Source: a virus | Length of the DNA: 23,509 nucleotides | Reading direction: 5' to 3' (one strand) | Virus genome (UHGV): UHGV-1357133 | Shown: positions 2,568-20,169 of the stretch, in pieces | Layout: each line of letters begins with the position of its first letter | How positions within the stretch are numbered: position 1 is the stretch's first letter | Made by a program: the position numbers and the translations under genes | The notes under the pieces: generated by a model | The model's input: the letters and a program-made list of their open reading frames with translations, nothing else | What the model was told of the DNA's origin: nothing | Databases searched by the model: none

Positions 2568-3737
2568 TTAACATATTTGCTTAATATGCCAGAAGATTTT
2601 GTCTGCATACAACTCATATGCCTCTTTCTGCTCCACCAGCCAATCGTGTTTGTTATAAACCGCCATCACCCCTCCCAGTTCATGCCCCAGCATCTTTTCG
2701 GTGACATGGGGCATAACCCCTTCTCCTGACAAATTGGTTACCAACGACCGCCTGAAGTCGTGCGTTCGCCATTCTGGTATATCAATTTTATCCCTTAACT
2801 TTTTCATGTAGAGATTTGCTGACGAACGATCTATGGCCTTGTCCAGTTCCTGCCCGGGGAAGAGAACATCGTTACCTGAATTAAGCAGCCTTTCCACGAA
2901 TGGCTTTACTTGGTCGAAAACAGGCCTGCGAATCACATTTCCCATCTTGGAGTGCTCTGATGGAGTTGTCCAAATCAAATCATCCATATTGAACTCGCTG
3001 GCGGTAGCAAGGCGAAGTTCCGACAACCTTGCCCCCCAAAGCAACAGAAGCTGATGAAGTACCTTGTTAGAGGTAACGATCTTGTTGTTTTCCAGCGCTA
3101 ACCATATTTTTGCCAACTCGGTATAGGTGAGAACCCGGCTACCAACATCAGGTTTCTTTCCTATGTTCTTAACACTGAGCTTCAAGACTTCGCATGAAGC
3201 GATCAACTGTCGGCTTATACACCAGTTCATTACAGATCGGAGCTGGAGAAGCAGCACTCTGGCCTTTTTTCCGTTTTTCTTTTCCTGCTTGTCGAAGAAC
3301 CTTACCCAGGCTGAAACAGGAATATTTACAACCGGTGCATCCGGGAATTCTGTGTACATGGTGTTGTACACAACAGACTTGTACAACGTTTGCGTATTTG
3401 GTTTCAGCGTTTCAACATACTTGCTCCACCACTGATCCAGACACTCTTTAAGTGTTAGCTCACCATCTTCTTTAGCAAAATAATTTTTAGGGTTTAGTCC
3501 CTTGAGGTACAATTCGCGCATCTCACCCACGATGACACGAGCATCTTTCAGAGACATTGCCGGATAGCGCCCTATAGTAAGGCGCACTGGCTTACCGTTC
3601 CAACGGTAGCGATGTTGAAACGTAATCGTTCCTGTCGGGGTTATGCGTACACTTAGACCGTCACCATCTGTCACTTCGGGTGCGCCGTTGTAGGGCTTAG
3701 CATTGATGCTGCGAAGTTTGGTATCACTGAGGGCCAC
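2568..3737 (-). CDS. int: tyrosine-type site-specific integrase, P4-like family
   Basis: N-terminus ALSDTKLRS...GLSVRITPTG...WNGKPVRLTIGRYPAMSLKDAR matches the arm-binding domain of P4-type integrases; the C-terminal region (HDFRRS...LGH...Y) fits a tyrosine recombinase catalytic domain. The track ORF starts at GTG 3758; GTG 3737 gives the family-typical MALSDTK N-terminus. Start is uncertain. Confidence 0.85.
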   Translation of the reverse strand: MALSDTKLRSINAKPYNGAPEVTDGDGLSVRITPTGTITFQHRYRWNGKPVRLTIGRYPAMSLKDARVIVGEMRELYLKGLNPKNYFAKEDGELTLKECLDQWWSKYVETLKPNTQTLYKSVVYNTMYTEFPDAPVVNIPVSAWVRFFDKQEKKNGKKARVLLLQLRSVMNWCISRQLIASCEVLKLSVKNIGKKPDVGSRVLTYTELAKIWLALENNKIVTSNKVLHQLLLLWGARLSELRLATASEFNMDDLIWTTPSEHSKMGNVIRRPVFDQVKPFVERLLNSGNDVLFPGQELDKAIDRSSANLYMKKLRDKIDIPEWRTHDFRRSLVTNLSGEGVMPHVTEKMLGHELGGVMAVYNKHDWLVEQKEAYELYADKIFWHIKQIC

Positions 3738-3741
3738 GGCT

Positions 3742-3794
3742 CTGTATCCTGTACACACTGAATTTCAGCATTCTGTACTCAATCTGTACGCAAT
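3742..3794. repeat. cluster of CTGTA(C/T) direct repeats, including tandem CTGTACTCAAT / CTGTACGCAAT
   Basis: Four CTGTA(C/T) copies read directly within 3742-3794, spanning the integrase start and its upstream region. Possible protein-binding sites; function unknown. Confidence 0.4.
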
Positions 3795-5728: not shown

Positions 5729-6688
5729 TCAGTACATGTTTGGAAGGATTAAAACGGGCATATTAATATTCTGGTTAAATGACATGTCGAATCCGTTGTC
5801 ATTATAATTACCGACTACCTGGTTATACGCTGACCTGACATTTCCTCCTGACATTACAACGCCTTTTTTTCTTACATTGAAGTATCCATCGACTCTCCTT
5901 GACTGCGCACCTGTAAATACTATCTGGCAATATTTATCACCTACATACTGATTACTGTCGGTCATGGTTAATTGCTGGTCAAATACAAATGGTCGCTTCA
6001 CTGTTGAAAATGTTACCTGTCCTGCTGAATTTGTCATGGTGATGCCATCACCGGCTACAGGAGCGGTATTATTGAAAATTACCAGGTCCATTGTTACAGA
6101 TGCGGAAACATCATCCCTTCCTGAATAACTGATGTCTCTTACAATAATATTTGTTCCGTCAAATCCTACAGATACATTATTGTTATTCCATTTCCCGAAC
6201 GGTATTCCTGATACGGGAAGATCCATCGAACCGTTGACTGTCACCGTGCCAACGTAAGCACATGTCATTAATTTAGCCTGATTTGAAATTGCCGTGAAAT
6301 CAGTAGAGTTGGAAACGAGAAGTCCTTCGTTGTAGGTAGTGGCAGGAAGAATTTCAAATACTGTTCCTGCCCAGTTTGGTATTCGCTGGTAGTTGCCCCT
6401 GTTTGTACCGTTAACAGTAACACCACTGTCTCCGTTTCTTGTCACTGATGTCATATATATCGGCAAAACAATCCATGTTTGATTGTCAGCAAATTCCTGT
6501 ATGTCAACAGGACGTGTCGGCAAAACAAAAACTGTAGAACCCGGAGTTAACGGAGTATCGACGCGAAATTGATTCGCTCCGGTTCCGTTCCCTGAAAAAC
6601 TGGCACAAAACGACGGGGCACGAAGCCCCGCGGTAATAGCCATCACAGGACGGCCATCGTTATAATCTATCAGTATTCCTTCCGGCAT
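5729..6688 (-). CDS. phage tail protein, putative receptor-binding/fibre-associated (family not recognised)
   Basis: 319-aa ORF immediately downstream of J with AAGGTGA Shine-Dalgarno. N/T/G/S-rich composition suggests a beta-rich fibre protein. Function assigned from position and composition only. Confidence 0.55.
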   Translation of the reverse strand: MPEGILIDYNDGRPVMAITAGLRAPSFCASFSGNGTGANQFRVDTPLTPGSTVFVLPTRPVDIQEFADNQTWIVLPIYMTSVTRNGDSGVTVNGTNRGNYQRIPNWAGTVFEILPATTYNEGLLVSNSTDFTAISNQAKLMTCAYVGTVTVNGSMDLPVSGIPFGKWNNNNVSVGFDGTNIIVRDISYSGRDDVSASVTMDLVIFNNTAPVAGDGITMTNSAGQVTFSTVKRPFVFDQQLTMTDSNQYVGDKYCQIVFTGAQSRRVDGYFNVRKKGVVMSGGNVRSAYNQVVGNYNDNGFDMSFNQNINMPVLILPNMY

Positions 6689-9815: not shown

Positions 9816-10400
9816 TCACTTATAGGTAAATCCGGGAGCGTCTTTTTTACTGCCCCAGTAAATCGAACGCTCTGCCATCTGAGCTACGTAACGAAATATG
9901 CGATCGCCTGGATAAGCGGCCTGCTGTGACTCATCGGTATAGCGGTCAGGGAACGGACGCTGCCAGTCTTCAAAAATATTGCTGATGGTGTACTGGAGCG
10001 CGTTAGTCTCGCCGACTGTCGCGCCGGTACTGGATACCCGGCCCTTAAACAGGAGATCGGCAACCTGAACCACACCGTTATCATCCATAGCAACAAGATA
10101 AATCTCGGCATTTTTTCCCACACAACGCTCATTCAGCGTCGTGGCAAAAAGCGACAGATCAAGACCAGAGAGCGTCATTTTGACCTGGGTCGGACTGGTG
10201 GTGTTGGTTTCGCTGGCATCATCGACAGAGCCCATTCGCCCCATGCCGTAATAAACATATCCGCCCAGCACGATTGTCCCGGTGCCGGAATGCACGTAAA
10301 CAGTGCCGGACTCAAACTGGATATTGGCAGCAATCACAGCCGTGACCCGGTCGCGGGAAAGCCAGTCGACCATCGAATCAGAAAAAGGGGAATACAACAT
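9816..10400 (-). CDS. phage minor tail protein (DUF2163 / lambda L-like, by position)
   Basis: 194-aa ORF with GGAGGAGG Shine-Dalgarno, between the distal-tail gene and the NlpC/P60 gene. Gene order matches HK97/GTA-type tail tips. Confidence 0.55.
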   Translation of the reverse strand: MLYSPFSDSMVDWLSRDRVTAVIAANIQFESGTVYVHSGTGTIVLGGYVYYGMGRMGSVDDASETNTTSPTQVKMTLSGLDLSLFATTLNERCVGKNAEIYLVAMDDNGVVQVADLLFKGRVSSTGATVGETNALQYTISNIFEDWQRPFPDRYTDESQQAAYPGDRIFRYVAQMAERSIYWGSKKDAPGFTYK

Positions 10401-10993
10401 TAAAACGCCTCCTCCAGTTCCAGCGTGTAACTGGTAAATACCCCAGGTACTCGATTACCCGCGCCCTGCTGGTTATCCTTCAGTTTGAAAATGCCGTATG
10501 GTTTCGCCACTTCGATAGCCGCGCCATCCGGTGGCGACCAGCGCAACATGGGCGCGAATGTCACAGTGGCTGTACCGGTTGATGTGCTCGTCACATCGGC
10601 GGTCACCATCTTCAGTTCGTCGTTAACGGTGATGTAGTCTCCACGCTCCAGAACTACGACACCGGGAGCCCATCCGCTCGTCTGTAATTCTGTGCCTGTC
10701 TGGTTTGCACCATTCACTACCGGAGAACCCGCGGGAGTGCGCCCGCCCCTTCCCCAGTCATGGATTTTTACCCTGCCATATTCGCCATCCAGCTCGGCAA
10801 TCAGCGAATCAAGACGCCGGGATTTATCATCCGACAGGTTGTTGAATGTCAGGGAGCATACCCAGCGGGTGCCGGGATAACGGACAGTCTGTGACGCACC
10901 ATTAAAAGGAGATCGAAATGTTTTGGTGTTACTTTCAGGTCGCCACGTTAATGACGCCGGACAGACGTCGTCCGGCCATTCAAGTGCAGCCAT
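10400..10993 (-). CDS. phage distal tail protein (DUF2460-like, by position)
   Basis: The track ORF starts at 11035, but the second ATG at 10993 has a CAGGAG Shine-Dalgarno 6 nt upstream while the first has none. First conserved-backbone gene after the tape measure side. Confidence 0.55.
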   Translation of the reverse strand: MAALEWPDDVCPASLTWRPESNTKTFRSPFNGASQTVRYPGTRWVCSLTFNNLSDDKSRRLDSLIAELDGEYGRVKIHDWGRGGRTPAGSPVVNGANQTGTELQTSGWAPGVVVLERGDYITVNDELKMVTADVTSTSTGTATVTFAPMLRWSPPDGAAIEVAKPYGIFKLKDNQQGAGNRVPGVFTSYTLELEEAF

Positions 10994-11155
10994 AAATACT
11001 CCTGGAGAAATACGCGCAACGGCGATACTGATCATTTGTCAGGGTGTTACAGGTCAATATCCCTGGTTAAAGTGTGTGGTTCAGCCCGTCAGTGGTTGGA
11101 CACTGGCGCACTCAGCGCAGAGGGATGGCTGATTACCTCTGATTAAGGAAATATC

Positions 11156-11449
11156 ATGTCTAATGAACAGCGTATCGAAAGCTTCGAAGCCCGTATTCGT
11201 AAGCTTGAAGAGGAAAACACTAAGCAGAAACAAAAGCTACTAACTCATGAAATTATGACGGGACTTATGTTGACAAATATTTTAAGAATGGTTGACTCAT
11301 TATCTCCTAGTGCAAACTTATCACAACGGTTGCTGGAATCCCTGCAAAAAGGCCAAGCAAAAATTGCTGATAGCGATGCGAGAAATGACCCTCATACAAA
11401 GGACGCATTTGAAATGGCAATTAAGACTGTGAATCGAGCGCTAAAATAA
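11156..11449 (+). CDS. hypothetical 97-aa protein (cargo gene inside tail module, opposite strand)
   Basis: ATG preceded by AAGGAAA 5 nt upstream. AT-rich relative to flanking tail genes. Predicted coiled-coil N-terminus (EQRIESFEARIRKLEEEN). Its 3' end overlaps the convergent 119-aa gene by 29 nt. Confidence 0.5.
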   Translation: MSNEQRIESFEARIRKLEEENTKQKQKLLTHEIMTGLMLTNILRMVDSLSPSANLSQRLLESLQKGQAKIADSDARNDPHTKDAFEMAIKTVNRALK

Positions 11450-11780
11450 CAGCGTTATCAAGAAGACGATCTCTTAGTTTATCGTAGTCCTTATCATTTT
11501 CCGCGGCCTGTTTTCGGGTCGCTTCAATAATCTTCGAGAGAACATTTTGAGCATGCTCTTTCGCTCTCTGGTTGTACTCTTCAAGCGTAAGCTCTGGCGT
11601 TAAGTCTTCGCTGTATTGGATAGTAGCTAAGGTTTCTTTGCTAATTTTCACAGACACATTACTGCCAATGCGTTGTGTCGATGACATGCGTAAATTTTCT
11701 CCGAAGGATATTCTTACTCCATTTTCTTCCGGAAACCCAACTTTAAATTCAAGAGCCTCAACTCGCTGTTCTAAAGTCAT
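11421..11780 (-). CDS. hypothetical 119-aa protein (cargo gene downstream of tape measure)
   Basis: ATG preceded by AGGAGA 5 nt upstream. AT-rich. N-terminus MTLEQRVEALEFKV resembles the N-terminus of the convergent 97-aa ORF. Confidence 0.55.
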   Translation of the reverse strand: MTLEQRVEALEFKVGFPEENGVRISFGENLRMSSTQRIGSNVSVKISKETLATIQYSEDLTPELTLEEYNQRAKEHAQNVLSKIIEATRKQAAENDKDYDKLRDRLLDNAVILALDSQS

Positions 11781-11825
11781 AATTATCTCCTGCCTTTCGG
11801 CTAATTAAATTAAGGATGCAGACCA

Positions 11826-14800
11826 TCACACGCCTAACAAACGACGTGCCTGGCCTCGATTGGAAAAGTCCTGCAGCAAATCCTGACGCGCCTGTTTAGC
11901 GCCATCATTCGCCCCCTGACGGGCTGCTTCCTGCATTGCCTGTTTCAGTGCTGCATCACCATTACCGGATATGGTGAAATGCTGGGTGATGTGCTGAGTT
12001 ATGCCATTTCCGGATGCTGGAGTCTGTGAACCAACCACACGCACTCCTAACGATCCATCAGCGGAGCGGGTTAACGGCATGATAGCTTCCGGCCCAGCTT
12101 CCCCCATCAAACCTGCGCCTTTGGCGAAGGCAAAATAGGTAGGCGAACTGACGATGCTGTTACTGTATGCGCTGAGGCTTGCAGAAGCATAGGCGCCTCC
12201 CTTTGCGTTGAGTTGAAGTTCTGATGCTGCTGAGTTGTAGGCGCCAGACGGCGTTGAGCCACCAGCCGACCCGCCAAACAGCCCACTGAGGAATCCACTA
12301 CCCCCCATAGATGACTGCAGAGAATTAACGATCATCGCATTGAGGATAATTTTCTGCATAGACTGAAGAACCGAACTGGCCCAGTCTTCCCAGTCAACCT
12401 TATTACCGGAAAGCGCATCAGAAATATTTCCCACCAGCCCGGTCATGGCATTGTTTACCAGATCTGCCGACTGTGAGGCATAATCGGAAGCAGTTTCAGC
12501 CCAGTTAGCGAATCCTTCACGCATACCAGCCGTCCAGTCGCTACGCTGTGCATCAGACGCAGCATAGAAACCTTGCTGATCGCGCAGGCGCTCATCAAGA
12601 TAACGTTTGTTTAAAGCCAAGGCTTCTTGGTAGAAAGCTTCGTCTATTTCACCAGTTTGTCGTTGCCGAAGCAGATCAGTATTCTTCTCTTCAAATTCCT
12701 TACGAATATTGAACTGTTCCTGAAGCCTTTCGCGAAACCGAGAACCCTGACCGTAACCGATTAGTTGAGCCTCGTTCGCTGCGCGGGAGCTTGCATTACT
12801 GTCTGCGAGATTCGCCTCGTAATTACGAAGTTGCTCACGTATTTTTTGCTGATCAATAAGCGCGGCATTCTGCAACAGGGTCTGTTTCTGGGACTCTGTC
12901 AGCGTCGCCAGTTCGCCCTGGCTAACCTGATATTTCAGTTTTGCCAGTTCGGTATTTTGACCAGCCAGAGCAATCTGCTCTTTCTGCTGCTTGATCAGCT
13001 TGTCATATGTATCAGATGTTTTTTCGGCCTCGGATTTTCCACCCTTATGGCGGCTTGAGTTACGAATTGCTTGTAATTGCCTGGCAGACTCAACTTCCAT
13101 GCTGACATATTTCTCACGCCAACCAGCTGGAAGGTTCAGATCAGATGCATCGAATTCTGCCTGCTTTCGAGCCTTATCCAAACCCTGAAGGCCAGATAGC
13201 TCAAGCTGTCGCTGTGCTTTCTCAATAGCTTGTTGTTGCTTATTATCAAGCGCAGGAAGTACAGGTCCTGCATATTTTGGTGGGGACACTGCTGTAGACT
13301 GTCTGGAAACCTTGTTCAGCCGGTCATACATCTCTGTAAGAGAACTTACGGCGCCAGCCATTTCTACTGTTTTATTTATAGCCTGATCAGTTATGTCGTT
13401 TATTAACTGTTGTGTTTGCTTTCTTTTATTGAGCATTTGCTCAAGTCGGCCTTCTTCAACCGCAAGTTCTGAAGCAAAGTCTGCGGCTTTCTCAACCGCA
13501 TCGTTATACAGCCATGTCCCCTCTGAAGCAGAATTGGCTGCTAATTTTGCGTTATAAAGTTGATTGGATAATTCAGCAACTTTCTGCTTCTGCTGTTCAA
13601 TCGCACTATTCTGAGCATCCAGTGAAATATTCGCCTGTCCAAGGTTGGCGGATATCTGCGTCTGAGACATTGATTTCAGATTATCTCGTACCTGCTCGAT
13701 TGTGTCCGCATATTGGATTGCAGATTCCCTGGCTTGTTCTTGGCGTTGATACATCGTGTACCACGCCCCAGCACCCAACATTAAAATTCCTGGCAAACCA
13801 CCAACTAACGACAAAAGAACCGTAGCGCCAGTTTTTACAAGCCCCAGCACTGATGTTGCAGAGTTAAGTGCCTGCTGAGAGGCTGCAACGGCTCTGTTTG
13901 ACTGTACCAGTGCCGCATTTGCTGTAATCATTTCCCGGCGCTTGGATATGGCATTTTGAGTGGCAGTAGCCTCAGCATTAGTATTCTTTGCCAGCACAAG
14001 TTCTGACTGAGCAAGCTGGTAAGCTCGCTCAGCAGCAATAGCATCGGCGGCGGCCTTGCGTTGTGATTGGGTAGCAGATTCAGCCCTTGCAGCTGCGAGC
14101 GCAATTTCGTTCTTTCTGGCATCTATTAATTGCGCCGTCTGGTTCCCAAGATCGCCAAACATCCCTCCAAGATAGCGAGCTCCACCTATCGCAGCCAAAG
14201 CTCCGGCAGCCGTAGCCACAGTGTCTATATTGTCAGAAACCGTATTCAATACGGCAACAAGAGTACTTGTCGCACCAGTGGCTTCATTAGCGCCACCTAC
14301 CCATGCCATGAAAGCATTTTCGACTTTCGTCGTGGCAGCAGAAACGGTCTGCGGCATTGCCTCAAATTCACCACGCATAGTGCCAAGTTGACTTATCAGG
14401 GCCGGGACAACTTTATCTGCGGTTAGCATCCCCTGATCGGCCATTGCCTTCAGATCTTTACGAGCTACACCCATCCCTGCGGCAAGAGCACGGATAACTC
14501 GATCACCGTTTTCGTTGACGGAGTTAAATTCCTCGCCTCGAAGAACACCCTGCGCCAGAGCCTGGCTGAACTGCGTGATTACCGAACTCGCTTCAGACGC
14601 GCTTGCGCCTGACAGCTTAAGCCCTGTTGATATAGCCTCGGTTACCTTCAGAACCTCTTCTGAACTGTAGCCATATTCACGCATAGAAGCGGCTGAACGC
14701 GCAAAAAGACTCGCATTATCAGAGAAGGCGGTTCCGGTTCGCTGGCTAATATCCATCAGCGCCCGCTGGGACTCCGTGAAATCATCTGACGACTGGGAAG

Positions 14801-15113
14801 CCTGCTTTAGCCTGGCATTAACAGAGCTCCATTCATCGGCCAGCGATATAAGATGACCAGTCGCAAATGCTCCAGCAAATGCACCAGCCATTCCCAGTGC
14901 TGAGGCCTTCGCGGTGTTTATTTGACTAGTTACCTCAGCCAAGGCACGCTGAGTTTCACGCGAAGCTGCGGCCGATTGGCGTCCTCCAGTCTGCATTACC
15001 CGGTAATAGTCATTCCCCATTCTTGAAGCACGAGAAATTTCAGACTGGAATGACTGAGAGTTTGCAGATATTTTGATGATCAGTTCGCGCAACGTAGCCA
15101 TATTTTCACCCAT
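11826..15113 (-). CDS. tail tape measure protein
   Basis: 1095-aa Ala/Gln-rich, largely helical protein in the canonical position after G/T. The first ATG (15111-15113) directly abuts a T-tract with no Shine-Dalgarno; the in-frame ATG at 15099-15101 (MATLREL...) is a more plausible start. Confidence 0.85.
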   Translation of the reverse strand: MGENMATLRELIIKISANSQSFQSEISRASRMGNDYYRVMQTGGRQSAAASRETQRALAEVTSQINTAKASALGMAGAFAGAFATGHLISLADEWSSVNARLKQASQSSDDFTESQRALMDISQRTGTAFSDNASLFARSAASMREYGYSSEEVLKVTEAISTGLKLSGASASEASSVITQFSQALAQGVLRGEEFNSVNENGDRVIRALAAGMGVARKDLKAMADQGMLTADKVVPALISQLGTMRGEFEAMPQTVSAATTKVENAFMAWVGGANEATGATSTLVAVLNTVSDNIDTVATAAGALAAIGGARYLGGMFGDLGNQTAQLIDARKNEIALAAARAESATQSQRKAAADAIAAERAYQLAQSELVLAKNTNAEATATQNAISKRREMITANAALVQSNRAVAASQQALNSATSVLGLVKTGATVLLSLVGGLPGILMLGAGAWYTMYQRQEQARESAIQYADTIEQVRDNLKSMSQTQISANLGQANISLDAQNSAIEQQKQKVAELSNQLYNAKLAANSASEGTWLYNDAVEKAADFASELAVEEGRLEQMLNKRKQTQQLINDITDQAINKTVEMAGAVSSLTEMYDRLNKVSRQSTAVSPPKYAGPVLPALDNKQQQAIEKAQRQLELSGLQGLDKARKQAEFDASDLNLPAGWREKYVSMEVESARQLQAIRNSSRHKGGKSEAEKTSDTYDKLIKQQKEQIALAGQNTELAKLKYQVSQGELATLTESQKQTLLQNAALIDQQKIREQLRNYEANLADSNASSRAANEAQLIGYGQGSRFRERLQEQFNIRKEFEEKNTDLLRQRQTGEIDEAFYQEALALNKRYLDERLRDQQGFYAASDAQRSDWTAGMREGFANWAETASDYASQSADLVNNAMTGLVGNISDALSGNKVDWEDWASSVLQSMQKIILNAMIVNSLQSSMGGSGFLSGLFGGSAGGSTPSGAYNSAASELQLNAKGGAYASASLSAYSNSIVSSPTYFAFAKGAGLMGEAGPEAIMPLTRSADGSLGVRVVGSQTPASGNGITQHITQHFTISGNGDAALKQAMQEAARQGANDGAKQARQDLLQDFSNRGQARRLLGV

Positions 15114-16520: not shown

Positions 16521-16554
16521 TCCTGGAAAAAGAAAACCCGCCATCAGGCGGGTT
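16521..16554 (-). terminator. terminator-like stem-loop directly upstream of the major tail gene
   Basis: On the minus strand: 8-bp perfect stem AACCCGCC / GGCGGGTT (16535-16542 and 16547-16554), 4-nt loop, then TTTTCTTTTTCC (16521-16534) running into the major tail Shine-Dalgarno. Confidence 0.5.
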
Positions 16555-16572
16555 CGTTGGGTGAATTAATTG

Positions 16573-16920
16573 TCAGGGGGTAACTTTAAAATCCAGGGTG
16601 GCACGGTAGAGCCGATAATCTGGCTCGTACCCGGGGATTTTTACCACCTCTGTAGGGTTTAACTGCTTAAGCGATGCGAGCGCCAAATCTCTCAGGGATC
16701 GTGATTCAGTGATCGTTGTGGCATACACATCGACCTGAACGGAAACCCTGCTCTCTGCCTGGCCACACAGTACGTCAGCGGAAACATCATCGACGATGGA
16801 AAAGATAATCCAGGGTGGCGAGACAGACGGTTTTCCGTCACTACCTAATGGCGCAACGTAGGGATATACCCGCCCTTCTGCCAGGGGAGAAAGCAAAGCG
16901 TAGATATCATCTTCATTCAC
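16573..16920 (-). CDS. putative tail completion / tail terminator protein (DUF3168-like)
   Basis: 115-aa ORF with GTG start overlapping the stop of the gp10-like gene (GTGA). Position between gp10-like and major tail genes. Confidence 0.5.
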   Translation of the reverse strand: MNEDDIYALLSPLAEGRVYPYVAPLGSDGKPSVSPPWIIFSIVDDVSADVLCGQAESRVSVQVDVYATTITESRSLRDLALASLKQLNPTEVVKIPGYEPDYRLYRATLDFKVTP

Positions 16921-19515: not shown

Positions 19516-20169
19516 TTAAAATTTGATGTTTTTCAGTGCATCCAGTGCGGTACTCACTTCATCAACATCACGCTGTGAAAGTGAGCCATAACCCCCGGCC
19601 ATGAATGCTTTAGCCTGGGTGCGTGAGAGCCCAACATCGCGCAGGACTCGTTCAATACTTTTTTGAGAAGGGATTTCTCCGCGGGAAAATGCGCTTTTGA
19701 CATCACTTACCCGCGCTTCATCGTTCGACGGAAACGTTACGAGACTGACTTCCCACAGGTCGATCTCTTTGAGAAGGAACACGCCCTTAACACGGTCGTA
19801 CTCCCAGTCTTTCAGCATGTAACCAATAGAAAGGCCGGTTAAAGAACCGGCCTTCATGTGGGCGTGTGCGCGTTTCGAAAGGGGATCGTCATCAATGAGT
19901 AACCGGCCTTTAACATAAAGGCCAACCTCATCTTCTTTCATCTCAGTGTAAATACCGATGGGTTCATCCATACGGTGCTGCCAGAGTAATGCAGGGAGAG
20001 CATTCTTTTCTTTCCATGCCTGAAGGGAGGCCGAAAAAGCGCCTGGCACAACAACATCATCGTAGCTGTCCTTTACGCCAAAAACAGAGCCATAGCCTTC
20101 AAACTCCCCGCTGTCGCTGACAGACTTTAGCTGTAGCGGAATATCCAGCCGCTGTTTAGTCATCGGCAT
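19516..20169 (-). CDS. prohead maturation protease, HK97 family
   Basis: 217 aa. N-terminal motif FEGYGSVFGVKDSYDDVVVPGAF is typical of HK97-type prohead proteases. Overlaps the portal gene 3' end. Confidence 0.9.
   Translation of the reverse strand: MPMTKQRLDIPLQLKSVSDSGEFEGYGSVFGVKDSYDDVVVPGAFSASLQAWKEKNALPALLWQHRMDEPIGIYTEMKEDEVGLYVKGRLLIDDDPLSKRAHAHMKAGSLTGLSIGYMLKDWEYDRVKGVFLLKEIDLWEVSLVTFPSNDEARVSDVKSAFSRGEIPSQKSIERVLRDVGLSRTQAKAFMAGGYGSLSQRDVDEVSTALDALKNIKF

What the first reader, a model, noticed from the sequence alone, without database searches (positions are those of the whole stretch)
11156..11780. Convergent, overlapping pair of small AT-rich genes with similar N-termini between tape measure and distal tail genes
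HK97/GTA-type tail modules normally run straight from the tape measure into the distal tail gene. Here about 620 bp of AT-rich DNA carries a 119-aa minus-strand gene and a 97-aa plus-strand gene whose 3' ends overlap by 29 nt. Both have good Shine-Dalgarno sequences. Their N-termini are alike (MSNEQRIESFEARIRKLEEEN versus MTLEQRVEALEFKVGFPEEN) although they are encoded on opposite strands, suggesting diverged paralogs. Convergent overlap implies mutual antisense transcription, so the pair could be a small regulatory, toxin-antitoxin-like or exclusion module.
Basis: partly seen in the sequence, partly recalled or inferred. Interest (0 to 1): 0.65.

Follow-up and report, generated by a model that had tools for sequence, protein, structure and literature searches.

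The report
Mobile two-gene prophage moron cassette
The two small converging genes are real, but they are not tail parts: they are one copy of a widespread, swappable accessory cassette in gut-bacterial prophages, laid out like known small systems that block rival phages' tail assembly, though its function has not been tested.

Summary
A 97-aa gene (A, 11156-11449 +) and a 119-aa gene (B, 11421-11780 -) converge, overlap by 29 nt and lie in AT-rich DNA between the tape measure and distal tail genes. Both evolve as coding sequence: A has dN/dS about 0.05 and B 0.2-0.5. They are not diverged paralogs, and no toxin-antitoxin domain was found.

They form one copy of a mobile moron cassette. In 75 related tail modules, 13 have an empty junction of 13-16 nt and 62 are occupied. 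The same cassette sits at other late-operon junctions in HK022 (gp22/gp23), ES18 (gp24/gp25), SPN3UB and HK633.

The cassette has four parts:
- a conserved promoter-like region and structured leader that precede at least 16 unrelated small ORFs, all antisense to the late operon;
- a conserved hairpin inside B;
- a late-strand gene B with a fixed MTLEQRVE start and a variable middle;
- a B C-terminal tail that always matches the antisense gene.

The layout matches Pseudomonas phage JBD26 Tab/anti-Tab, but no sequence homology was found. My best reading is a prophage-expressed accessory gene, probably anti-phage, paired with a late-expressed partner. The function is inferred, not shown. Interest is moderate.

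The parts
11826..15113 (-). Tape measure protein gene. This is the upstream late-operon neighbour and is not part of the cassette.
   Evidence: 1095-aa ORF. Annotated as tail tape measure protein in close relatives.
11781..11815 (-). Short conserved block just upstream of B (TTAATTAGCCGAAAGGCAGGAGA) that includes B's Shine-Dalgarno sequence. It marks the right boundary of the cassette.
   Evidence: It is conserved across different tail contexts. It is absent where B follows the preceding gene by about 15 nt, so there is no conserved promoter for B.
11421..11780 (-). Gene B (119 aa, phrog_11851), co-oriented with the tail operon. It has an N-terminal MTLEQRVEALE motif, a beta-sheet-plus-helix core and an allele-specific C-terminal tail.
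   Evidence: Residues 1-93 are conserved. The last 25 or so residues change with the antisense partner.
11503..11522 (+). Conserved hairpin GCGGYC-loop-GRCCGC, 54 nt downstream of the A stop and inside the B ORF, where it encodes the invariant AAxxQAA. It is probably A's 3' terminator or stabiliser, and it is the recombination breakpoint between cassette modules.
   Evidence: Conserved across loci. Folding energy -14 kcal/mol, z -2.5. B alleles diverge right after it. The T-run in the window is weak, and the terminator scan did not call it.
11421..11449 (.). The 29-nt overlap between the 3' ends of A and B.
   Evidence: Overlaps of 29/32/41/53 nt in 25 of 26 A-family loci. Overlaps of 4-62 nt in 47 of the 57 pairs scored.
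11156..11449 (+). Gene A (97 aa, phrog_23209), antisense to the tail operon. It is predicted to be a three-helix protein, with invariant KQKLLTHE and NDPHT.D motifs.
11079..11155 (+). Conserved structured 5' leader of A. It contains a hairpin (11087-11094 paired with 11101-11108), an invariant TCAGCC (11081-11086) and GGCTGA (11127-11132), the core GGATGGCTGATTACCTCTG (11123-11141) and the SD AAGGA (11145-11149).
   Evidence: Alignment A4. 238/238 cells are paired, 4 pairs covary, and 0/500 shuffles reach the observed score. The G.U wobbles fit only the + strand. The core 15-mer occurs in at least 120 viral contigs. The window has a single copy. Rfam gives no match.
11027..11073 (+). Inferred sigma-70-type promoter of A. 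It comprises a conserved upstream box (ACTG at 11027-11030, TCAGG at 11039-11043), a -35 GTTACA (11046-11051), a 16-nt variable spacer and a -10 TAAAGT (11068-11073).
   Evidence: T, A and the final T of the -10 hexamer are invariant in 17 diverse loci, while the spacer varies. It scores 8/12 to consensus, below the scan threshold. This is an inference; no start site has been mapped.
10400..10993 (-). Distal tail protein gene (phrog_1302), the downstream late-operon neighbour. Its real start is probably Met15 at 10993, with a GGAG SD.
   Evidence: RefSeq starts the orthologue at the equivalent Met. Empty junctions place the TMP stop 13-16 nt from this ATG.

Best explanation
The pair is one copy of a mobile, modular moron cassette that sits at junctions inside the late (virion) operons of temperate siphophages of Enterobacteriaceae.

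Shown:
- The cassette is absent from some close relatives and present, with different alleles, in most of them.
- A conserved promoter-like region and a structured 5' leader precede gene A.
- A is antisense to the tail operon and under strong purifying selection.
- A conserved hairpin lies about 55-75 nt past A's stop, inside gene B.
- B lies on the late-operon strand with no conserved promoter of its own.
- B has a fixed N-terminus, an exchangeable middle and a C-terminal tail that always goes with the antisense gene. That tail is conserved at the protein level.

Inferred:
- A is made from the repressed prophage as an accessory factor. It is most likely an anti-phage factor of the virion-assembly-blocking type.
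- B is made only when the late operon fires.
- Late transcription then runs head-on into A's transcription and generates antisense RNA to A. Protein B binds or neutralises A through its matched C-terminal tail, so the resident phage is spared.

This is the logic demonstrated for Tab/anti-Tab (JBD26) and Tai/Ati (phi80).
For: Accessory status. 13 of 75 related tail modules have an empty TMP|Dit junction and 62 are occupied. GC is 0.40 against 0.55 in the flanks.

Mobility. The same A family, with a convergent partner, lies between gpI and gpJ, between M and L, after a head-tail gene, and after the lysis genes.

Expression platform. The -10 T/A/T positions are invariant, the leader hairpin covaries with G.U pairs that fit the + strand, and at least 16 unrelated cargo ORFs follow the same leader.

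Coding status. A has dN/dS 0.04-0.08 and B 0.23-0.47.

B's dependence on late transcription. Only 15-45 nt separate B from the preceding gene, with no conserved upstream sequence.

Linkage of tail and cargo. B's tail co-varies strictly with the antisense gene while B's core assorts freely. Substitutions in the RDRLLD stretch of the tail are synonymous in B's frame.

Precedents. JBD26 atab (+) and tab (-) converge with a 47-nt overlap between two late genes. Tab is 83 aa, constitutively expressed, targets the TMP C-terminus and is bound by the late-expressed anti-Tab. phi80 tai lies antisense within the Q operon.

Other support. Some B alleles resemble the TMP C-terminus or the C-terminal region of gpJ. 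One relative carries a DUF6602/PD-(D/E)xK nuclease in the antisense slot. The window contains an integrase, so the element is temperate.
Against: - There are no expression data. The promoter matches consensus at only 8/12 and was not called by the scan, and the window's hairpin lacks a good T-run.
- A and B show no detectable homology to Tab, anti-Tab, TaiEcA or AtiEcA.
- There are no PADLOC, Pfam or NCBIfam hits.
- There are no informative fold matches.
- The window's own B tail shows no mimicry of any tail protein (p=0.46).
- The tail-cargo linkage could be purely physical, since the two share DNA.
- Free assortment of B cores with A types argues against a specific A-to-B-core interaction.
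Confidence: 0.55

Rival explanations
1. A and B are two unrelated morons that happen to be packed tail to tail. A is a lysogenic-conversion factor with a host-directed role rather than an anti-phage role. B is an independent late accessory protein. The overlap and the tail-cargo linkage are by-products of compaction and of recombination at the hairpin.
For: B cores and A types assort independently. The cargo families are very diverse and have no defence signatures. HK022 and ES18 annotators could only label them morons of unknown function.
Against: B's cargo-specific tail is conserved at the protein level beyond the overlap. The convergent arrangement is kept through many allele swaps and at several genomic positions. 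The same layout is functionally coupled in Tab/anti-Tab.
Confidence: 0.25
2. B is a minor tail or fibre-associated protein, or an assembly factor. It would be a miniature relative of the central tail fibre's C-terminal region. A would be its regulator or chaperone.
For: B is a late-operon gene placed among tail-tip genes. Several B alleles resemble gpJ residues about 840-1012 or the TMP C-terminus. B's N-terminus looks like a trimeric coiled-coil start.
Against: 13 close relatives lack the cassette altogether yet have the same tail genes. The cassette also lies outside tail modules in HK633. The window's own B has no tail-protein similarity. A is antisense to the late operon, which is unusual for a chaperone.
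Confidence: 0.1
3. The pair is a toxin-antitoxin-like or purely antisense-RNA regulatory module. Mutual antisense transcription would be the main function, for example insulating the late operon in lysogens.
For: The convergent 3' overlap guarantees complementary transcripts if both strands are read. Lambda-type copies end with a late-strand terminator just past the leader.
Against: A is under strong protein-level selection. There are no toxin or antitoxin domains. Neither protein is hydrophobic in the way type I toxins are. Rfam gives no match.
Confidence: 0.05

Closest known systems
Moron genes gp22/gp23 ('srb') of phage HK022, gp24/gp25 of ES18 and gp32/gp33 of SPN3UB
   Same: These are the same cassette. 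The leader DNA is shared at 75-80% identity over about 120 nt, including the core motif. A late-strand gene converges on an antisense small gene at a tail-gene junction. They are annotated 'moron gene product' or 'possible moron; function unknown', and ES18 has terminators annotated on both strands.
   Different: The alleles differ. The antisense genes there belong to phrog_6806-like or other families with no detectable homology to the window's A. ES18 gp24 is DUF1327. The insertion sites are I|J or M|L rather than TMP|Dit.
Tab / anti-Tab of Pseudomonas phage JBD26 (PMC10884400)
   Same: A small (83 aa) gene antisense to the late operon converges on, and overlaps by 47 nt, a small late-operon gene between two essential late genes. 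It is described as a moron with constitutive defence expression, and the late-expressed partner binds the defence protein.
   Different: No significant sequence similarity was found: hhalign E=0.069, probability 0.8% for A against Tab, and nothing for B against anti-Tab. The host clade and phage type differ, the insertion site is between the terminase genes, and there is no shared leader. Function is untested here.
Tai / Ati of phage phi80 (PMC11364771)
   Same: The defence gene is antisense within the Q-dependent late operon, next to a small late-expressed antidote in a 'non-contiguous operon'. [quoted passage not shown]
   Different: tai (204 aa) and ati (76 aa) are divergent and overlap at their 5' ends. 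There is no homology to A or B.
HK97 gp15 moron (YebO-like superinfection exclusion protein; PMC3594210)
   Same: It is a small moron inserted next to the tape measure gene, and it protects the lysogen.
   Different: gp15 is an inner-membrane protein. A and B have no predicted membrane segments, and there is no paired antisense arrangement.

Membership tests
Moron (as defined in PMC3594210, citing Juhala et al. 2000) | Extra DNA between two genes that are adjacent in related phages | tested here: met
   13 of 75 relatives have 13-16 nt between the TMP stop and the Dit start.
Moron (as defined in PMC3594210, citing Juhala et al. 2000) | Base composition differs from the surrounding genes | tested here: met
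   GC is 0.40-0.42 against 0.52-0.59.
Moron (as defined in PMC3594210, citing Juhala et al. 2000) | Own promoter and terminator | tested here: inconclusive
   The -10 TAnnnT positions are invariant and there is a conserved 3' hairpin. However, the consensus scans call neither of them in the window.
Moron (as defined in PMC3594210, citing Juhala et al. 2000) | Expressed from the repressed prophage | not testable with these tools
   No transcriptome is available for this element.
HK022 gp22-23 / ES18 gp24-25 cassette | Shared leader DNA upstream of the antisense gene | tested here: met
   blastn gives 75-80% identity over about 120 nt in HK022, ES18, SPN3UB, HK633, mEp213 and mEp043. Alignment A4.
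HK022 gp22-23 / ES18 gp24-25 cassette | A late-strand gene converging on the antisense gene | tested here: met
Tab/anti-Tab | Sequence homology to Tab (defence) and anti-Tab | tested here: not met
   hhalign E=0.069, probability 0.8% for A against Tab, and E=0.52 for B against anti-Tab. No Tab profile could be built because the search returned only one hit.
Tab/anti-Tab | Antisense small gene converging on and overlapping a late-operon partner between late genes | tested here: met
   29-nt overlap in the window against 47 nt in JBD26.
Tab/anti-Tab | Blocks tail assembly of invading phages through the TMP, with the partner binding the defence protein | not testable with these tools
   This needs phage challenge, electron microscopy and interaction assays.
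Tai/Ati | Sequence homology to TaiEcA / AtiEcA | tested here: not met
   hhalign E=0.5-0.7.
Toxin-antitoxin (type I or II) | A recognisable toxin or antitoxin domain, or a small hydrophobic toxin with an antisense RNA | tested here: not met
   No Pfam, NCBIfam or PADLOC hits. Both proteins are predicted to be soluble. Rfam gives no match.
AgvB/AsxR prophage anti-sRNAs | 51-60-nt sRNA at the PR' moron site with a conserved 3' region | tested here: not met
   Those sRNAs lie downstream of PR', not in tail operons. Rfam gives nothing. The leader motifs are absent from that paper's supplementary files.

The most novel reading that the evidence does not exclude
The conserved promoter-leader, hairpin and MTLEQRVE frame would be a general plug-in platform. 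Through it, enterobacterial prophages would swap dozens of small Tab-like proteins that block virion assembly (the antisense cargo). Each cargo would travel with its own antidote peptide, the matched C-terminal tail of late-strand gene B. In some alleles that tail mimics the targeted tail protein, either the TMP C-terminus or the C-terminal region of gpJ. That would make the cassette a large, unrecognised reservoir of defence/counter-defence pairs with a decoy mechanism.
Probability: 0.3. Interest if true: 0.75.

Novelty: new member of a known kind. Interest (0 to 1): 0.5.

Why it matters
If A-type genes prove to be anti-phage factors, this cassette would be a cheap sequence handle for finding them. 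A roughly 120-nt leader and a hairpin could locate many small, unannotated defence genes together with their cognate antidotes inside prophage late operons. That region is usually ignored by defence-island searches and by domain-based finders. The cassette would also show how such pairs are exchanged by recombination at fixed breakpoints. Even without that function, it explains why the tape-measure/distal-tail junction is polymorphic in this phage lineage, and it warns annotators not to call these ORFs tail proteins.

Tried and rejected
- **AgvB-like anti-sRNA.** The late strand of lambda-type copies carries CACAACAT, a hairpin and a terminator. I rejected the idea because AgvB lies at the PR' moron site, Rfam finds nothing, and the motifs are absent from that paper's supplementary files.
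- **LexA box upstream of the -35.** The spacing is CTG-N9-CAG, not N10 (read).
- **Upstream ORF MADYL... in the leader.** Its length and frame are not conserved, whereas the nucleotides are invariant even at third codon positions.
- **Alternative leader helix AGAGG/CCUCU.** It has only one compensatory case and 79% of cells paired, so it remains unresolved against the TCAGCC/GGCTGA helix.
- **Inverted repeats as transposon ends.** The A and B 5' ends form a 20-nt, 75% complementary repeat. This is weak, and it is absent in A alleles with the other N-terminus.
- **Genome-representative scan for A.** It returned one locus only.
- **A Tab profile for remote homology.** The search returned one hit, so no profile could be built.
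- **Papers with possible expression data.** The HK022 lysogen paper says nothing on gp22/gp23. The ES18 genome paper is not held.

Full report
**What is there.** The window is a temperate prophage. It has an integrase at 2568-3758, and its head and tail genes are on the minus strand. The closest protein matches are from Citrobacter. Between the tape measure gene (11826-15113) and the distal tail gene (10400-11035, phrog_1302) lie a 97-aa plus-strand ORF, A (11156-11449), and a 119-aa minus-strand ORF, B (11421-11780). They overlap by 29 nt, both have Shine-Dalgarno sequences, and the DNA has 40-42% GC against 52-59% in the flanks.

Both ORFs are real genes. A has 25 homologues at 99-51% identity. 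Its substitutions concentrate at third codon positions, and dN/dS is 0.04-0.08. B has 60 homologues with dN/dS 0.23-0.47.

**Not tail components and not paralogs.** I examined 75 viral contigs whose distal tail protein is at least 81% identical to the window's. Thirteen have only 13-16 nt between the tape measure stop and the distal tail start. Sixty-two carry an insert of about 480-860 bp. The insert is therefore accessory, although it is the majority state.

The predicted folds differ. A is three helices (pLDDT 84). B is a four-stranded sheet plus helices. The N-terminal resemblance is 8/21 identities with shuffle p=0.086. A's N-terminus is also an exchangeable module with two alternative forms.

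**A mobile cassette.** Homologues of A occur in other late-operon contexts, always antisense to the operon and always facing a co-oriented partner:
- between gpI and gpJ in lambda-type tails;
- between the tape measure or M gene and L;
- after a head-tail gene;
- after the lysis genes in HK633. Its unannotated 111-aa ORF is 34% identical to B, and its gp65 is a remote homologue of A (hhalign 95%).

In 25 of 26 such loci the 3' ends overlap by 29-53 nt.

The same leader DNA is present in HK022, ES18, SPN3UB, mEp213, mEp043, HK633 and others. There the pairs are gp22/gp23 ('moron gene product'), gp24/gp25 ('possible moron; function unknown', with terminators annotated on both strands) and gp32/gp33.

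**Anatomy.**

1. *Promoter-like region.* Upstream of A lie a conserved box, a variable 16-nt spacer and a hexamer. The hexamer's T, A and final T are invariant in 17 diverse loci. In the window this gives a -35 GTTACA at 11046-11051 and a -10 TAAAGT at 11068-11073. It scores 8/12 to consensus and was not called by the scan, so the promoter is inferred.

2. *Structured leader (about 11079-11155).* The hairpin 11087-11094/11101-11108 keeps all 8 pairs in all 17 sequences, 4 of the pairs covary, and no shuffle of 500 reaches the observed score. The G.U wobbles pair only on the plus strand, so the hairpin works in A's mRNA. A stem at the very 5' end would be expected to stabilise the mRNA; this last point is my inference from general knowledge of mRNA decay. 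Rfam has no match.

3. *Hairpin inside B.* A conserved hairpin (11503-11522, -14 kcal/mol, z -2.5) lies 54 nt past A's stop, within B, where it encodes B's invariant AAxxQAA. It is followed by a T-run in some loci but only weakly in the window.

4. *No conserved promoter for B.* B follows the preceding late gene by 15-45 nt.

5. *Late-strand terminator.* Lambda-type copies end with a late-strand Rho-independent terminator just beyond the leader. This terminator is missing in the window's tail type.

**Modularity.** The leader's core 15-mer occurs in at least 120 viral contigs. It precedes at least 16 unrelated ORF families, nearly all of 63-99 aa.

At the tape-measure/distal-tail junction alone, at least 14 antisense families occur. 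One locus instead holds a DUF6602 PD-(D/E)xK nuclease that matches defence-associated profiles.

B has three parts:
- a fixed MTLEQRVE start, conserved as protein despite synonymous changes;
- an exchangeable core;
- a C-terminal tail of about 25 residues after the hairpin.

The tail always matches the antisense gene, whichever core it is attached to. In A-type partners, substitutions in the tail's RDRLLD stretch are synonymous in B's frame although this stretch lies beyond A's stop. The tail is therefore a selected peptide.

Some tails or cores resemble tail proteins. One tail matches the extreme C-terminus of the tape measure protein (p<0.005). Others match residues about 840-1012 of the central tail fibre. 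The window's own B shows no such match (p=0.46).

**Mechanism.** I found no domain, family or fold assignment for A or B. Function must therefore be argued from the architecture.

Two experimentally characterised systems use the same logic:
- *Tab/anti-Tab in JBD26.* Tab is an 83-aa constitutively expressed moron that blocks tail assembly through the tape measure C-terminus. The late-operon product anti-Tab binds and neutralises it (PMC10884400). The deposited annotation shows the two genes converging with a 47-nt 3' overlap between two late genes.
- *Tai/Ati in phi80.* The tai gene lies antisense in the Q operon next to its late-expressed antidote, and Tai levels fall when Q is expressed (PMC11364771).

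By analogy, I propose three steps. A is made in the lysogen. Induction then sends late transcription through B and against A. B's matched tail neutralises A. All three steps are inferred.

Homology to Tab, anti-Tab, TaiEcA and AtiEcA was tested and not found. This is therefore a resemblance in design, not membership of those families.

**Verdict.** It is a new allele pair of a cassette that has been labelled 'moron, function unknown' in the deposited HK022 and ES18 genome records. In what I could read, I found no description of its shared leader, its breakpoint hairpin or its cargo-matched partner tail. I could not read the original HK022 and ES18 genome papers.

Noticed in passing
window 10994-11035: The longest ORF of the distal tail gene starts at 11035. 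However, Met15 at 10993 has a good GGAG Shine-Dalgarno sequence, RefSeq uses the equivalent start, and empty junctions abut it. The 42 nt upstream (TACTGATCAT...) align with the conserved left edge of the cassette.
   Followed up: partly
L005-L010, L013-L016, L022-L023 (about 130-160 nt upstream of the A start); absent in window 11000-11040: In lambda-type contexts the cassette ends with a late-strand Rho-independent terminator (GCCACC-loop-GGTGGC followed by T7) just before the next tail gene. On that strand it is preceded by CACAACAT, a motif like a GcvB target, and a hairpin. This looks like a small RNA, but it is not AgvB and has no Rfam match. The terminator is missing in every copy at the tape-measure/distal-tail junction.
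   Followed up: partly
L117 2057-2923 (strand antisense to the tail operon): At the same junction, one relative carries a 288-aa DUF6602 / PD-(D/E)xK nuclease instead of a small ORF. It hits PADLOC PD_DExK at 8e-28 and is NucC-like. Only the promoter-proximal part of the leader is retained upstream.
   Followed up: partly
L061 1322-2530: A 402-aa protein that by eye resembles an IS256-family transposase (not scanned against any profile library) is inserted into the cassette of an FSL SP-016-type allele. The insertion truncates B's tail.
   Followed up: no
L060, L062, L064 and similar loci (B C-terminus) compared with window TMP residues 1070-1093: The B tail that partners the 'MKFYLSKVQLLH' antisense gene (GAEAAMKQIHQDFISRGPLRRLLD) resembles the extreme C-terminus of the tape measure protein (GAKQARQDLLQDFSNRGQARRLL). 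It could be a decoy, or a relic of an earlier insertion at the end of a tape measure gene.
   Followed up: partly
L038 (SPN3UB record 16532-16648 and 19608-19739); L041 (ES18 gp22, locus 3125-3523): SPN3UB has two copies of the leader. ES18 has a further antisense 'possible moron' between the tape measure and M genes. One phage can therefore carry several such cassettes.
   Followed up: no
window 5729-6688 (-): A 319-aa ORF between the tail-tip fibre gene and the tail fibre gene matches phrog_1265, which is categorised 'moron ... membrane protein' (1e-142). It may be a second accessory gene in the tail region.
   Followed up: no
L002 7657-7808 (E. coli MSB1_9D): A YebO-family gene, the family of the HK97 gp15 exclusion moron, lies immediately upstream of the tape measure gene in this close relative.
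   Followed up: no
L242 1378-1834 (JBD26 record 13377-13833): In the deposited JBD26 annotation, anti-Tab (gp30, +) and Tab (gp31, -) converge and overlap by 47 nt. The passages of the paper that I read do not stress this arrangement.
   Followed up: yes
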